Shown: positions 10,161 through 31,100 of the stretch, one piece after another
How positions within the stretch are numbered: the first letter of the stretch is position 1
Layout of the letters: the number at the start of each line of letters is the position of its first letter
Assembly (NCBI GenBank): GCA_035221665.1
Contig: CM069162.1
Location: forward strand, 16,306,001-16,370,000
DNA length: 64,000 nucleotides
Direction of reading: 5' to 3'
Source of the DNA: Okamejei kenojei
Taxonomy: Eukaryota
Position numbers: made by a program

Positions 10161-13100
10161 ATAAATAAACAGATAAAATGCAATAGGCTGTTATTTTTCA
10201 GAGCTTGGAGTTTGGTTGTGGTGGGTCCACTCCACTTTAAATTCCATTTGGAATATTTTTGGAGGACCATGAAGCCAAGAAGCAAGAGTTACTCCAGGGA
10301 GTTACTCCAGCTCCAGGGAGTAATTCTGCGTTGGTTTTCAACGGTCGTGGTGAGGCGGCGACCAGACAGCAATGGCGGCCAGATCTCCCGCAATGCAAAG
10401 GGAGGGAGAAAGTGACCGACGCCGACCAGTTGCTGTGGCAGTGCGCTTGTGCAGGGCGGCACATGCGCACAACCACGGTCGATGATGTGCTGGCCCTGGT
10501 TGTGCGCATGTGCAGGGGGAGGATGTGCAGGCCGTGGCAGTGCGCATGCATGTATAAGGAGACCCGAGAGCCGGACACGAATGGCGGGCAGAGATAGAGA
10601 GTGACAGAGAGAGATAGAGAGAGGGCCCGCTCAGAATTAAACAATAGGTGTCCCGGGTACTTGCCAAGCCGGGTAAAATGGCATGGCTTTCAGGTTGCCC
10701 AGTGGGACTGTAGGTTGCCATTGGCACCCGTGCAACCGTTAATTTCGAGCCCAGAACAGTTGTCAATGTCTCACCTTTTCAGTTAGTTAAAACAAAAAAA
10801 TGTGTTTCACTCACTTAAATAGTACGGTTCAGGAGAATGAGATGCGTGGCAGGCTTGTCATTCAATGCCTCAGAGTAGCTTTGCAGCAATATTCTGAGAA
10901 TCAAGAATGCAGTATTTGAAAATTGATAGATCCAAGTAAAGTAATTTTCCAACAAAGTAGTTGAAGAGCTTCCAATAATTACATCTTTGTCATATTTCAA
11001 TGCCATTTCATCATTCTGTGTGGCATGGAAGGAAGGCCTTCAGTCCACAGAGCCTTTGCTGACTAAATCAACTGCTTTCCACCATTCACGCAAAAAAAAA
11101 CTTTCTTTTTTGCGTACGAATTATCAACATCCATCCCCAGAATTCTCCAACCACCCATGTCACTAGGGATAGTTTACAGTAGCCAATATCCCTCACAGTC
11201 AGTATATATTTGGGGTTTTGAACAAAGTGGGAGCATTCACACAGTGACACAGCTACACAGCTTGCAGCGCTATTATACCATGTAGTTTTATGATTTTTAT
11301 TTTGTTAGTTGCTATAGTGCACCTTATATGGTTCTGCAACTATAATGATTGTGTTGTAGTTTAAGGCAATGGATGGATGCAGATATTTTGTCTATAGAAG
11401 AACCAAAGATCTTTGTCAAGGCCCCTGCAATGGGCCCCATAGTTCATGGCATGCAGAGTAATCCTGCCATCACACTGCTAGAGATCCTGTTATTTAATTT
11501 ATTAACTTACTCCTTAAATTCTCCTTGCTCCTCATCTCCCTTCCTACCTGTGACGTTGGTACCAAAATGGACCACAGCCTCCCTCTGTTCACCCTCCCCT
11601 CTCAGAATGTCCTGTGCTCGCTGCCTTAACCTTGGCACCAGGGAGGCAACAGAGCCTCCTGGAGTCTTGCTTGGGATTACATAAATGCCTGTTTGTACCA
11701 CTGACTATGGCTCACCTAGATTGAACCCTACTTGGCTGTTCAGCAGAGCCAGATGTGGTACCACTGTTCTGGTTACTACTACTATTTTCCCCCTCCACAG
11801 TATCTAGAATGGTATCCTTGTTTGAGAGGAAGATAGCCACACGAGAATCCTGCACTACCTGTCTGCCTCTCCTGGTGGTCACCCATCTATCTTCCTGAAC
11901 CTTTGAAGTGACCACCTGCCTATAACTACTGTATATAAACCCTTTCTGCATCCTATAGCTTCTCAGTCTGCCCAATTGCTGCTCCAATCGATCCACTGAT
12001 GGACACACTTCCTGCAGTTAAATGTATTTCATTATGCCAGTACTGCAACCAAGTTTCTACCTCATATGCTGTACAGTGCCATTCATTGCACCTCTCAGAA
12101 TCAACTCTAGGCGGATGGTCAATGTGTGTGTAATGGGAAAGTGTTTGTTATAATGGCTTGTTTGTTATAATGGATAGTTCATTTTACTTAAAGTTAACAG
12201 GTTTAGGGGATGTTAATCTTGGTTGTGTCAAATTTCATATGATTTTATCAGAATATTTTTCTTGAGTAGTGATGATTCCTTTGTCTTTCTGAGCAGAAGA
12301 TTCGAGGAATCTCACAGAACAGGAGTTCCTATTACTGCACAGACAGGATCTTGCAGAGGCCGTCCAAGACGTGCAAGGTTTAGTGGAATCTGTGACAAAC
12401 TGTGATGATATCCCATTGCCAGAGAAAACGGTATTGACACACACAATTTTAAAGAAATATCTTTATGTCTTTCAAATGTGATTGCTTCTCTGACACCCCC
12501 CCCGAGCACTGGTGATGTGGCTCTTGCCTGAGCATTAATTATCTTATTAAGATAATACTTGATCCTTTCCCATTGAACAATGAGGCAGACTCCCCACATT
12601 TTTATGTCACTAGCACAGGGTCTCAGACTGCATTGTTTTTTGTAGAGGTGGTAGTGCATAGATTTAGGAGTCAAAGGGGAAAGTGAGTTATTATTTTAAG
12701 CTATTTTGATTTTATTTAACGTATTTAATTATTTGTGTTTTTAGTTAACATTTAAAATTTTTTAAATGTTTTAATTAAATGTTCTTTTTTTATATCTTGA
12801 TAGTTTTAATTGTCTCTAACAATGATTACACTTGGCAAACCCAGTCTTCCACTTTGCCATTTGCCAGGGACATTTTGTGATGAGGATATCTTCATTGTAT
12901 TACGTGATACACTTGCCATCTAGTCCATGTACCAGGACTTTTGGGGTGAATGTCCAGCGATATAATCCTTCTGCATCTATAAGTGCGTCTATCAGTCCAT
13001 GTAAGTGTAGGTATGGATGGACAGCAGGTAGTGTTCCTGGGTGACCGGACAGTGTTCCAGGGACTGATAGAGTGAGATAGTTTGGATTGGGTTTGCATGT

Positions 13101-28100: not shown

Positions 28101-31100
28101 TGGCAGTGTTCTTGCAGGCCCATGAAGCGTAACGCAGAGGAGGGGCTGACTGCTGTCACCAGACAGTTGCACTCACAGAAAAGCTTGTCCCAATATACAA
28201 CAGACTTGAGAATCATTTAAAAAAATAATCTTAGAGTAATTACAATTATTTTTTCTAAAACAAATAGCATGTAAAAAGCACACACCCATGAACAGAATAT
28301 TTAACCAGCATAGTTGCATTAAACAATAGGCTTTTCTAATGATAAACAATTTCTATCATTCATTTAATGATAGTGCCTATGGCAGGTTTAGTTTGAGTCG
28401 GAGGACGAACTGGATTATCGTAAGCGCCTGATTTATCAGTAGTTGGCCACAATTGTTAGTGGCGAAGCTTCTTGACGAATAAATAACTCTATCATTGTCA
28501 AAGTGGAAGTAGGGTTGTGCAAACTCTTTGTGTGAGATTGCACATTCACTTTCTTAATATTTTAGATGAATGGCTTTGCAACATTAGGTCAGTGACCCTT
28601 CATTGTTGAAAATATTATGAGGTGTAAGTGAGATTTCCTGCATGCATGGATTGTGTGCTTTCAGGGAATGTTCCAGCACCATCACAGATGTAAGTGAAAG
28701 ATCCATCAGCATCAGATGTACTGATTGGTGTGAGCAAAGGTCTCAGCAGCATCACAAGAGTTTCTGACAAAAATAAAATGAAATATTATTTGTACTCAAT
28801 AACCATTTTTCCAATAGAATCTCGTGCATTTTGTAATTTCAGCATTTTACTGGCATTTCCATTAGTTTTGCTAACATTTTCTAATATAAAAGCAAGTGCA
28901 TGTATTTTGTACTTGTTGAATTAAAGTCTCTCTTGCTATCACAGGTGTAGGTTGCATTATGGTAAAAGTCCTTGCATTGTGCAAATAGCATTTCTTGTAT
29001 GTTCTGTTTTGTGATACAGTACCACATCACTGTTGATAAAAGAATGGGATTCTTCCATCTGTTTCAGTCAATTCCTGGGACAGATTCAAGGCCCATAATT
29101 TTTATGTGAAATTAATAGAGAGATGCTTTTACATGTGGTGGGGTAGTCAGACAAGAGTCAGCACAGTGGCACAGCTAGCTGGGAGAGCCGCTGCCTCACA
29201 GCACCTGAGACCCAGATTGGATCTTGGGTGCTGTCTTTGTGGAGTTAGCAAGTTCTCCCTGTGACTGTGGGTTTTCTCTGGGTGCTCTGGTTTCCTCCCA
29301 CATCCCAAAGCAGGTTTGTAGGTTAATTGACCTCTATAAATTGCCCCTAGTGTGTAGGCAATGGATGCAAAAGTGAGATAACAGAGTAGTGTGAACAAAT
29401 GACCAATGAACGGCGTGGACACAGTGGGCTGAAGGGCCTGTTTCCATGCTATATCTTGCAATCCATTAATCATCTAGGAAATAGGGCAGCAAAGGAAACA
29501 AATGGTGAACAATAATGCATTCCCACCACCTTTAGATAAAAAAAAACACCTCAATTAATAGGTGATGTGAATCGATAGAGACCACATAATTGCAATTTCC
29601 ACAACACGCAGTTAACTGTCTGTCACCTTCTGCAAAGTATATTGACGCTAAAAAATAAGAATAGTTTACATAATTTATACTAGAGTTATACAAAAATGCA
29701 GGAGAATTAGTTCAAGGAGCTGAGTAGTTATAGTTTATATTGACCTGACTAATTATTCAGTGCTGTGGCAGGTTGAGTGTATACATTGAGTAGATTTTTG
29801 ATATGCACTAAAAATATATATTTTTAAATTCTCATGAATTATTTGCATGGTTTATATTTCTTCCCACTGTCAGATTTTGAAGAGCTGTTGTTTCAAGGAT
29901 ACTGCTGGTCAGTCACTAGAAAGTATTCTGGGCAAAATTCTAGAAGAACGGCTCGTTCCTGCCCTGGTGTTTTGTAAACTCTTGCATATGATCAGTGAGT
30001 CCCATCCGTCCCTTGAATTGGTAATGAAGACAATGGAACATGCAGGTAACTGTACAAAGAAGGATTTGCGTTTAGATATCTTATGAGCATGGGCACAAGT
30101 AAGATTTATAGTTTTGTCCATAAAACGTTATTTTACACCGACTTGCTTTGTACCTCTACAGGTACCGTAAACAAACAAATTTACTTGCGTTCCAAAGTTA
30201 AGTCATCTTCAGGGATTGTAATGGTTATTTTCCATCTTACAAAGTTGGAGAACTAACTTTGATGCAATTGCTCTAACTTTCACAGATTTCAGATTCCTAG
30301 CCTGTCATTTTGTGAACTTGCTAAAAACGTAATGCCTACTACTACCTACTGTCAATAAAATGATCCCTTTAAGGACCAATTTTGAATCCACACCCACATT
30401 GTGGTTCAAGGCATAGATTGTAAAATTTCTCTGGAGTAAGCTTGTTCACAGCTTATTGATCCACAAAGAATGACACTTGCAGTATTTTGCTCAGCAATAA
30501 TCAGCAATGATTTTTGAATTGCCTCAGTTTGTAACTTTTAAAATATAATTTCAAGAAATATCCCTCGGAAAAGCAGAAGGAAAATAAATTAGTAAGAATT
30601 AGAAATACTTGAATCAGTAGCACATATGAGAGAAATTATGAATACTTCAGGTTGTTGGTTATCATGAAGGTGAAAGCAGTTTTCCTCTCTGCTTATAACT
30701 TTTAAAATCAAACTTCTGTTAGATTAAATAGTAATGTCTATATCTAAATTCAAACCTAGATTTAAGGAGCTAGCTAGTAGTTCCATTTCACCACTAAATG
30801 CAGGGTGAAATAATCATGAACATTTCATAGTCGTAGAGAGTCACAGGGCACAGAAACAGGCCCTTTGGCCCAGCTTGTCCATGCTGACCAAGATGCCCAA
30901 TCTAAACTAATTCCATTTGCTCACGTTTGTCCCATGCCCATATAAACCTTTTCTATCCATGTGCCTGTCCAAGTGTCTTTTAAATCCTTCTCTGTTTTTA
31001 AATGTCTTTGTGCATTGTCTATTCTTCTTCACAAAACTGCAGCCACCCAGGCAGTGAGCTCTGTCGGCCATAGATATGAATTCTGTTCTTCATTGAACAC

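What the first reader, a model, noticed from the sequence alone, without database searches (positions are those of the whole stretch)
12297..30045. Exon architecture records tandem duplication of a symmetric two-exon cassette
Seen: each unit is a 134-140 nt exon (phase 1-0) plus a 172-199 nt exon (phase 0-1), with the internal intron at the homologous position. Cassette lengths are 333, 333, 336 and 309 nt, all multiples of 3 and bounded by phase-1 introns. Established: class 1-1 modules are the typical substrate of exon shuffling. Inference: one domain cassette was inserted between BTB and fingers and quadruplicated, and whole units could be skipped in frame to change valency. This supports the domain boundaries independently of the protein similarity.
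Basis: partly seen in the sequence, partly recalled or inferred. Interest (0 to 1): 0.65.

Follow-up and report, generated by a model that had tools for sequence, protein, structure and literature searches.

The report
Four CARD-like domains from duplicated exon pairs
In a skate's ZBTB40 gene, four neighbouring pairs of exons each encode one small six-helix domain of the CARD type, an ancient fourfold duplication laid out so that exons can be left out without breaking the reading frame.

Summary
Eight exons (12297-30045, + strand) form four A+B pairs of 333, 333, 336 and 309 nt. Every pair is bounded by phase-1 introns and split by a phase-0 intron at the same alignment column. The gene is ZBTB40 of a skate, not human.

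The four units are true paralogues: profile-profile E-values run from 1.7e-8 to 6e-17. Each positional unit groups across 26 species from sharks to mammals, so the quadruplication predates the split of cartilaginous and bony vertebrates.

Each unit models as a six-helix bundle with a broken first helix. Its best structural matches are CARDs, including the NOD1 CARD and the SP100 CARD filament. Unit 1 of two other species passes Pfam's HSR cut-off.

Of 121 named ZBTB40 proteins, 15 lack whole units. These are database models, not reads, and none comes from the window's species.

The origin by insertion, the donor gene and any effect on valency remain inferences.

The parts
6895..7654 (+). Coding part of the BTB exon of ZBTB40, from the ATG to the donor CAG|gt. 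It ends in phase 1. This is the upstream flank of the cassette array.
   Evidence: (93% identical to Leucoraja erinacea ZBTB40).
12297..12430 (+). Exon 1A, 134 nt, phase 1 to 0. It encodes helices H1a, H1b, H2 and the start of H3 of CARD-like unit 1.
   Evidence: The helix assignment is carried over from the model of the whale-shark unit.
13165..13363 (+). Exon 1B, 199 nt, phase 0 to 1. It encodes the rest of H3, H4-H6 and the linker of unit 1.
   Evidence: (100% identical to P0009). Weak HSR match on its own (E 0.034).
18679..18818 (+). Exon 2A, 140 nt, phase 1 to 0 (unit 2).
19039..19231 (+). Exon 2B, 193 nt, phase 0 to 1 (unit 2).
23412..23548 (+). Exon 3A, 137 nt, phase 1 to 0 (unit 3).
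25587..25785 (+). Exon 3B, 199 nt, phase 0 to 1 (unit 3).
   Evidence: (acceptor ttgacag|AGAATT read by eye).
27292..27428 (+). Exon 4A, 137 nt, phase 1 to 0 (unit 4). Its acceptor is preceded by a run of 22 C (27263-27284).
   Evidence: Weak CARD match on its own (E 0.18).
29874..30045 (+). Exon 4B, 172 nt, phase 0 to 1 (unit 4, the shortest and most diverged).
32007..32431 (+). First zinc-finger exon. Its acceptor is ttattag|GA, and it starts in phase 1. This is the downstream flank of the array. The 3' end is approximate (end of the tblastn match).

Best explanation
**What the region holds.** It contains eight coding exons of the ZBTB40 gene of a skate. They encode four tandem domains of 103-112 residues that lie between the N-terminal BTB domain and the C-terminal C2H2 fingers.

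**What each domain is.** Each is a CARD-type death-fold bundle: six helices, the first broken into H1a and H1b. By sequence the first unit is nearest to the HSR (SP100/AIRE) kind of CARD.

**How each domain is encoded.** Two exons encode it. Exon A (phase 1 to 0) gives H1a, H1b, H2 and the first turn of H3. Exon B (phase 0 to 1) gives the rest of H3, H4-H6 and the linker.

**How the array arose.** The four exon pairs are paralogues made by tandem duplication of one two-exon cassette. This happened before cartilaginous and bony vertebrates diverged. The order of the duplications is not resolved.

**What the phases allow.** Every cassette border is phase 1 and every internal intron is phase 0 at the same column. 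Two kinds of exon loss therefore keep the frame:
- Whole cassettes, giving fewer domains.
- B(n)+A(n+1), giving a hybrid domain from the front of one unit and the back of the next.

**Shown.** The exon map, the phases, the paralogy, the age and the modelled fold. Database protein models of other vertebrates show both kinds of loss.

**Inferred.** The first cassette entered the gene as a class 1-1 module. The skate itself splices in these ways. The domains act as homotypic or heterotypic CARD interaction modules; this could account for the reported association of human ZBTB40 with PML bodies, with splicing changing their number or make-up.
For: **Exon map and phases.**. A named orthologue maps onto exactly these exons.

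**Same intron column in all four units.**

**Paralogy.**
- Shuffle tests.
- Profile-profile comparison of the four unit profiles, 26 species each: all 6 pairs have probability 95.4-98.8% and E from 1.7e-8 to 6e-17 over 90-103 columns.

**Age.**
- In a tree of 104 units from 26 species, each positional unit is one side of a branch (SH-aLRT 97, 60, 99, 98).
- A bowfin, a teleost (Albula) and a bird each have 4 units.
- 77 of 118 named orthologues have 4 units.
- No collinear DNA similarity is left between cassettes.

**Fold.**
- The model of one unit has pLDDT 83.6 and pTM 0.75, with helices at 5-15, 17-23, 27-36, 42-52, 57-69, 76-85 and 91-103.
- In the Foldseek search of the PDB, 22 of the first 23 listed rows are CARDs. 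They include NOD1 (probability 0.96) and the SP100 CARD filament 9tnz_A (probability 0.97, TM 0.56/0.61).
- In the profile search of PDB sequences, the six best distinct sequences are all the NOD1 CARD, E 0.0021-0.0075, aligned end to end.
- Pfam HSR (PF03172) is above its cut-off for unit 1 of the whale shark (31.2 bits against 24.9) and the paddlefish (26.8 bits). It matches 3 of 29 unit fragments.
- The full-length model shows four such bundles at pLDDT 70-89, separated by low-confidence linkers at the phase-1 borders.

**Exon loss.** Half-exon profiles on 121 named proteins gave these counts. Gap edges match the exon edges.

| Architecture | Proteins |
|---|---|
| Full | 83 |
| Lacking 1B+2A | 16 |
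| Lacking unit 3 | 8 |
| Lacking unit 2 | 4 |
| Lacking units 3+4 | 3 |
| Lacking 3B+4A | 3 |
| Lacking 1B+2A and unit 3 | 1 |
| Other (see below) | 3 |

The three others are P0106 with no unit 1 detected, P0110 with six units, and P0158 with exons 2A and 3A below threshold.

**Function lead.**
- Passages of PMC10480536 report that human ZBTB40 colocalises with PML bodies, and they treat the 'long mid domain' as uncharacterised.
- Passages of PMC4548144, PMC7118133 and PMC13649554 describe HSR/CARD-driven multimerisation and PML-body association of SP100-family proteins and AIRE.
Against: **The window's own exon peptides reach no Pfam cut-off when taken singly.** The best are HSR at 14.7 bits and CARD at 12.3 bits. 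The full-length Leucoraja protein showed no HSR match at E up to 1.

**Most unit fragments match neither family.** Only 3 of 29 match HSR and 1 of 29 match CARD at E up to 0.01.

**The structural and sequence matches are weak in absolute terms.**
- No Foldseek match has E below 0.001, and TM-scores are 0.5-0.65.
- The sequence matches in the PDB have E around 0.002.
- The whale-shark unit 1 fragment searched alone found nothing relevant in the PDB.
- The fold rests on predicted models.

**One A-exon pair is not significantly similar on its own.** This is 2A-3A.

**The isoform evidence is indirect.**
- It comes from database protein models, many of them computed.
- None is from the window's species.
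- I saw no reads.

**One paper points elsewhere for telomere binding.** The passages of PMC10480536 say telomere binding needs the BTB domain. They report no role for the mid region.
Confidence: 0.82

Rival explanations
1. The cassette was taken by exon shuffling from a gene of the SP100/AIRE (HSR-CARD) family. Both families would then share the same two-exon layout of the domain.
For: **Sequence and structure.**
- Unit 1 passes Pfam's HSR cut-off in two species. HSR is the only family the first fragment matches at E up to 0.01.
- The SP100 CARD filament is the second-best structural match.

**Gene layout of AIRE.**
- The Table 1 passages of PMC9175554 place c.83 in exon 1 and c.242 in exon 2, and list c.308-1G>C as the intron 2 acceptor.
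- The AIRE CARD (residues 1-105) is therefore also encoded by two exons and ends at a phase-1 intron after codon 102.
- From memory only, AIRE exon 1 ends at c.132. That would be phase 0 after codon 44, close to the ZBTB40 A/B junction, which falls between HSR profile positions 42 and 43.

**Cell biology.** Both kinds of protein are nuclear and linked to PML bodies.
Against: - I could not confirm the AIRE exon 1/2 border in any paper.
- I had no eukaryotic genomes in which to read intron positions of SP100, AIRE or other CARD genes.
- The mixed-unit profile matches the NOD1 CARD in the PDB sequences and not SP100.
- Identity to the SP100 CARD in the structural alignment is 17%.
- Units 2-4 do not reach the HSR cut-off.
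Confidence: 0.35
2. The four units are constitutive in the living animal. The shortened proteins in the databases would be artefacts of gene prediction, or rare mis-splicing without function.
For: - All evidence for exon loss is from protein models.
- 83 of 121 models are full length.
- No shortened model is from the window's species or from the named Leucoraja record I saw.
- Each of the four units is conserved as its own lineage from sharks to mammals. That argues that all four are needed.
Against: - The same losses recur in distant lineages with edges exactly at exon borders. Unit 2 is lost in 4 elasmobranch species. Unit 3 is lost in turtles, a sturgeon and an ostrich. Exons 1B+2A are lost in turtles and seven or more mammalian genera. 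Exons 3B+4A are lost in three dolphin genera.
- Many are numbered isoforms beside a full-length model of the same assembly. That is not what an assembly gap gives.
Confidence: 0.25
3. The units are merely similar amphipathic helical segments, not a duplicated death-fold domain. The likeness would come from composition, and the shared intron positions from chance.
For: - Sequence identity between units is low: 17-31% within the window.
- One A-exon pair is not significant.
- The Pfam and Foldseek statistics are weak.
Against: - Shuffles keep composition, yet 11 of 12 like-with-like exon pairs exceed them while 16 A-against-B controls do not.
- Profile-profile E-values go down to 6e-17 over the whole unit length.
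- The intron column and both phases are the same in all four units.
- The structural matches are almost all to one fold: 22 of the first 23 listed rows.
Confidence: 0.03

Closest known systems
HSR/CARD domain of the SP100 family and AIRE (Pfam PF03172)
   Same: - Six-helix CARD-type fold.
- Unit 1 of two species passes the Pfam cut-off.
- Both occur in nuclear DNA-binding proteins.
- Human ZBTB40 is reported at PML bodies (passages of PMC10480536), where SP100-family proteins reside (passages of PMC4548144).
- The AIRE CARD is also split over two exons and ends at a phase-1 intron (passages of PMC9175554).
   Different: - Here the domain is internal and present four times in tandem. In those proteins it is single and N-terminal.
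- No SAND, PHD or bromodomain follows. The partners here are BTB and C2H2 fingers.
- Units 2-4 and the window's own exon peptides do not reach the HSR cut-off.
- Multimerisation was not tested.
Canonical CARDs (NOD1, Apaf-1, NLRP1, CARD8; Pfam PF00619)
   Same: - Best sequence-profile matches in the PDB are to the NOD1 CARD, aligned end to end.
- Best structural matches are CARDs, with the broken first helix.
   Different: - Only 1 of 29 unit fragments matches PF00619, at E 0.0052 and below the cut-off.
- The context is a nuclear BTB zinc-finger protein, not an apoptosis or inflammasome adaptor.
Tandem CARDs of RIG-I and MDA5, and tandem DEDs
   Same: Several death-fold domains follow one another in one chain. 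In RIG-I the tandem CARDs build a helical turn that seeds a partner filament (passages of PMC11874512).
   Different: There are four domains rather than two, separated by linkers that the model leaves flexible, except between units 3 and 4. No partner is known.
Class 1-1 symmetric modules of exon shuffling (Patthy's rule; recalled, not read here)
   Same: Both borders are phase 1, the length is a multiple of three, and the module equals one folded domain.
   Different: The module is itself split by a conserved phase-0 intron inside helix 3. That gives a second in-frame register. From memory, class 1-1 modules are typical of extracellular mosaic proteins, whereas this is a nuclear protein.

Membership tests
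ZBTB40 orthologue | N-terminal BTB domain, long middle region and C-terminal C2H2 finger array. Best matches are named ZBTB40 proteins and are collinear over the gene. | tested here: met
   best hit is Leucoraja erinacea ZBTB40, 93% identity over the BTB exon; collinear map of all exons; BTB and finger families in the orthologue.
CARD / death-domain fold | Bundle of six antiparallel helices of about 90-100 residues, with helix 1 broken into H1a and H1b. | tested here: met
   This rests on predicted models only. The unit model has pLDDT 83.6 and seven helical segments, the first two separated by one residue. All four units in the full-length model show the same pattern.
CARD / death-domain fold | Structural similarity to solved CARDs. 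| tested here: inconclusive
   22 of the first 23 listed Foldseek rows are CARDs, with probability up to 0.97 and TM 0.5-0.65. No match has E below 0.001.
CARD (Pfam PF00619) | Score above the family's gathering cut-off (23.9 bits). | tested here: not met
   Exon 4A alone scores 12.3 bits. 1 of 29 unit fragments matches at E 0.0052. The PDB profile search gives the NOD1 CARD at E 0.002-0.0075.
HSR domain (Pfam PF03172, SP100/AIRE type of CARD) | Score above the gathering cut-off (24.9 bits). | tested here: inconclusive
   Met for unit 1 of the whale shark (31.2 bits) and the paddlefish (26.8 bits), and for 3 of 29 fragments. PF03172 is precomputed on 8 of the 120 listed proteins. Not met by the window's exon 1B alone (14.7 bits) or by the Leucoraja protein. 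The joined window units were not searched.
HSR domain (SP100/AIRE type) | N-terminal position, single copy, followed by SAND and often PHD or bromodomain. | tested here: not met
   The units lie at about residues 253-690 and number four. No SAND or PHD family is found in the orthologues.
HSR/CARD | Homotypic multimerisation and targeting to nuclear bodies. | not testable with these tools
The only related evidence is the reported PML-body colocalisation of human ZBTB40 (passages of PMC10480536).
Class 1-1 exon-shuffling module | Both flanking introns in phase 1, and the module length a multiple of three. | tested here: met
   lengths 333, 333, 336 and 309 nt. The flanking BTB exon ends in phase 1 and the finger exon starts in phase 1.
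Class 1-1 exon-shuffling module | The same module, with the same intron phases, occurs in unrelated genes. This would be evidence of actual shuffling. | tested here: inconclusive
   The AIRE CARD ends at a phase-1 intron and is split over two exons (passages of PMC9175554). The exact internal border is only recalled. No eukaryotic genome collection was on hand.
Tandem duplication of a cassette | Units are mutually homologous, adjacent, in the same orientation, and have the same internal intron position and phase. | tested here: met

The most novel reading that the evidence does not exclude
The four linked CARD-like domains of ZBTB40 may act as a single-chain stand-in for about one turn of a CARD helical polymer. 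Such an array could seed, cap or dock onto the CARD polymers of SP100-family proteins in PML bodies and at telomeres. Splicing in two registers would then tune it: whole-cassette loss sets the number of domains, and B(n)+A(n+1) loss makes hybrid domains with new surfaces. That would make ZBTB40 a DNA-sequence-specific adaptor between chromatin sites and CARD-based nuclear bodies.
Probability: 0.12. Interest if true: 0.75.

Novelty: new member of a known kind. Interest (0 to 1): 0.5.

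Why it matters
**A structural identity for an uncharacterised region.** ZBTB40 is a poorly understood, ancient transcription factor linked in the literature to telomeres, PML bodies, spermatogenesis and bone density (listing; passages). The one functional paper I read treats its 'long mid domain' as uncharacterised. Reading that region as four CARD/HSR-type domains suggests how the protein could reach PML bodies.

**Novelty of the link.** I found no paper in the held library that links ZBTB40 with CARD, HSR, SP100 or death domains:
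- Searches returned 2 papers and 1 paper, all unrelated by title and abstract start.
- asked for any 2 of 5 terms. It listed 12 of 1,415 matching papers; only the first holds ZBTB40, and by its title it is unrelated.
- The main text of a 2025 death-fold atlas does not mention ZBTB.

**A clean case for gene evolution.** Phase-compatible exon pairs record a domain quadruplication older than jawed-vertebrate diversification. An internal phase-0 intron gives a second in-frame splicing register that could yield hybrid domains.

Tried and rejected
**Searches that gave little or nothing**
- Single exon peptides against Pfam reached no cut-off.
- Foldseek with the full-length model returned only zinc-finger arrays and said nothing about the units. 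I then modelled one unit alone.
- The whale-shark unit 1 fragment searched alone against PDB sequences gave nothing relevant.
- The protein atlas gave CARD clusters for units 2 and 4, but at scores of 0.76-0.82, below the level the tool calls more than a lead.
- DNA-level comparison of the four cassettes showed no collinear similarity. The one strong match is a dispersed repeat.

**Order of the duplications**
- The (1,2)|(3,4) split has support of only 71.
- The two alternatives are not rejected (AU p 0.415 and 0.477).

**Taxonomic reach**
- No chimaera or lamprey orthologue turned up in the three protein searches. These are word-limited and list at most 120 proteins, so the question stays open.
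- A profile of the four B exons against 1.84 billion representatives found only 28 proteins. I used only the table.

**Exact AIRE exon 1/2 border**
- It was not found in the papers searched.

**Complex prediction**
- I sent four copies of the unit to the complex prediction tool.
- The queue was full at every try, and in the end the tool was declared unavailable. There is no verdict.

**Left out or closed**
Named full-length orthologues stood in for it.

Full report
**Source of the window.** The window is not human. The exon with the BTB domain (6895-7653) is 93% identical to the named ZBTB40 protein of the little skate Leucoraja erinacea (P0009). The next-best matches are ZBTB40 of other rays and sharks. 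The window holds no N. It is rich in reverse-transcriptase and transposase fragments. Wherever a whole domain or protein was needed, I used named full-length orthologues from the protein database.

**The observation.** Exon 3B was read by eye and confirmed by the phase table.
- The lengths are 134+199, 140+193, 137+199 and 137+172 nt, which sum to 333, 333, 336 and 309.
- Counted from the ATG at 6895, each A exon runs from phase 1 to phase 0 and each B exon from phase 0 to phase 1.
- The BTB exon ends in phase 1 at 7654, and the first finger exon begins in phase 1 at 32007.
- The Leucoraja protein maps collinearly onto exactly these exons, with no other coding piece between them.
- In an alignment of the four units, the A/B junction lies in the same column.

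**Are the four units alike beyond chance?** Local alignment scores of the window's own exon peptides were compared with 1000 shuffles each.
- All six B-exon pairs exceed the shuffles (z 4.1 to 13.7).
- Five of six A-exon pairs do so (z 3.2 to 6.4). The 2A-3A pair does not (z 0.6).
- Sixteen control pairs of A against B lie between z -1.4 and 1.8.

I then built profiles of each positional unit from 26 species. All six profile-profile comparisons give probabilities of 95.4-98.8% and E-values from 1.7e-8 to 6e-17 over 90-103 columns. The units are paralogues.

**Age and order of the duplication.**
- A unit profile finds four units in 77 of 118 named orthologues. Most of the rest are shorter isoforms.
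- A bowfin, the teleost Albula and a further bird also have four.
- In a tree of 104 units from 26 species (rays, sharks, a sturgeon, frogs, turtles, a crocodile, a bird and mammals), each positional unit forms one side of a branch, with SH-aLRT support of 97, 60, 99 and 98.
- The four units therefore existed before cartilaginous and bony vertebrates parted.
- The grouping (1,2)|(3,4) has support of only 71, and the two alternatives are not rejected (AU p 0.415 and 0.477). The order of events is open.
- No collinear DNA similarity is left between the cassettes.
- I found no chimaera or lamprey orthologue, but the searches are word-limited.

**What the unit is.**
- Singly, the exon peptides reach no Pfam cut-off. 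The best leads are HSR for exon 1B (E 0.034) and CARD for exon 4A (E 0.18).
- In full-length orthologues, unit 1 passes the HSR cut-off (24.9 bits) in the whale shark (31.2 bits) and the paddlefish (26.8 bits). It does not in Leucoraja.
- Of 29 unit fragments from 29 species, 3 match HSR and 1 matches CARD at E up to 0.01.
- A profile of those 29 fragments finds, as its six best distinct PDB sequences, only the NOD1 CARD, aligned end to end at E 0.0021-0.0075.
- An AlphaFold2 model of one unit has pLDDT 83.6 and pTM 0.75. It shows six helices, the first broken in two.
- Foldseek against the PDB gives no match below E 0.001. However, 22 of the first 23 listed rows are CARDs, led by NOD1 (probability 0.96) and the SP100 CARD filament 9tnz_A (probability 0.97, TM 0.56/0.61).
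- The full-length model of a whale-shark isoform shows four such bundles at pLDDT 70-89. Low-confidence linkers lie at the borders before unit 1, between units 1 and 2, between units 2 and 3, and after unit 4. The 3/4 border is bridged by a helix.
- The phase-1 introns thus mark the domain borders. The phase-0 intron cuts inside helix 3 (residue 46|47 of the modelled fragment, helix 42-52).

**Exon loss in other species.** I built eight half-unit profiles split at the skate's A/B junction and ran them over 121 named ZBTB40 proteins.

| Architecture | Proteins | Where |
|---|---|---|
| Full (1A 1B 2A 2B 3A 3B 4A 4B) | 83 | |
| Lacking unit 2 | 4 | All elasmobranchs |
| Lacking unit 3 | 8 | Turtles, a sturgeon, an ostrich |
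| Lacking units 3+4 | 3 | |
| Lacking 1B+2A | 16 | Turtles and mammals |
| Lacking 3B+4A | 3 | Dolphins |
| Lacking 1B+2A and unit 3 | 1 | Tuatara |

Three further proteins are odd cases:
- An axolotl protein has no detectable unit 1.
- A frog protein has two extra units.
- Albula has two A halves below threshold.

Pairwise alignment of isoforms of one species puts the gap edges exactly on the exon borders carried over from the skate. This also shows that the internal intron position is shared with tetrapods. All possible whole-cassette junctions in the window give Gly or Val codons and no stop. These are database models. I saw no reads, and none comes from the window's species.

**How it most likely works.**
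- Shown: one two-exon cassette for a CARD-type domain was multiplied to four in tandem very early in vertebrate history, and its phases allow in-frame loss in two registers.
- Inferred: the domains serve protein-protein association, as CARDs do.
- In the SP100 family and AIRE, the HSR/CARD drives multimerisation and nuclear-body association (passages of PMC4548144, PMC7118133 and PMC13649554).
- Human ZBTB40 is reported to colocalise with PML bodies and ALT-associated PML bodies, while its 'long mid domain' is left uncharacterised (passages of PMC10480536).
- The array could therefore be what takes ZBTB40 to such bodies, with splicing setting the number or make-up of its domains.
- Nothing here tests this.

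**A possible donor.** The Table 1 passages of PMC9175554 place c.83 in exon 1 and c.242 in exon 2 of AIRE, and name c.308-1G>C as the intron 2 acceptor. The AIRE CARD (residues 1-105) is thus also encoded by two exons and ends at a phase-1 intron after codon 102. I recall that exon 1 ends at c.132, which would be phase 0 after codon 44 and close to the ZBTB40 junction at HSR profile positions 42|43. I could not confirm this in any paper. It is a lead, not a result.

**Novelty.**
- No paper in the held library links ZBTB40 with CARD or HSR.
- A wider search on ZBTB40, SP100, AIRE, death domain and caspase recruitment listed 12 of 1,415 papers. The only listed paper that holds ZBTB40 is unrelated by its title.
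- The SP100 and AIRE CARD papers do not mention ZBTB. Nor does the main text of the 2025 death-fold atlas; its supplements were closed.
- Automatic Pfam annotation already marks HSR on 8 of the 120 listed orthologues.
- I therefore rate this as a new member of known kinds (CARD domains, class 1-1 modules, tandem domain duplication). It has one less usual feature: the second in-frame register that would yield hybrid domains.

Noticed in passing
window 24687-24986 (+) and 29166-29456 (-): Two copies of a dispersed repeat of about 300 nt (71% alike) lie in opposite orientation in the internal introns of cassettes 3 and 4, bracketing exons 3B and 4A. At least three more copies lie at 7934-8016, 33157-33395 and 34967-35242. 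Pairing of inverted copies in the pre-mRNA could favour loss or back-splicing of 3B+4A; this is only a thought.
   Followed up: partly
window 44627-44713 (+): An 87-nt exon encodes exactly one C2H2 finger (29 residues). It matches the 29-31-residue segment that is present or absent between isoforms of other species. This is a second optional in-frame module in the same gene.
   Followed up: partly
window 4760-4996: A tandem repeat of a 40-nt G+C-rich unit (5.9 copies, 85% matches) lies inside the only G+C-rich stretch of the window (4001-6000, 55.6% G+C), about 2 kb upstream of the ATG. It may be the promoter or CpG-island region of ZBTB40.
   Followed up: no
window 27263-27284: An uninterrupted run of 22 C lies directly before the acceptor of exon 4A. 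This is an extreme polypyrimidine tract.
   Followed up: no
window 14924-15958 (+), 496-978 (-), 52999-53301 (-), 58809-59246 (-), 9615-9932 (-): Open frames of transposable elements. There are reverse-transcriptase fragments, one of 344 residues in the intron between exons 1B and 2A. There is also a LINE-type endonuclease fragment and a DDE transposase fragment.
   Followed up: partly
protein P0110 (Anomaloglossus baeobatrachus, 1559 residues): This frog model carries six units; the order ends 3A 3B 4A 4B 3A 3B 4A 4B. It is either a recent further duplication of a two-cassette block or an assembly or annotation artefact.
   Followed up: no
window 7654, 13363, 19231, 25785, 30045: All five exons that end in phase 1 end with G. 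After any whole-cassette loss, the split codon therefore encodes the residue that the downstream exon normally starts with.
   Followed up: yes
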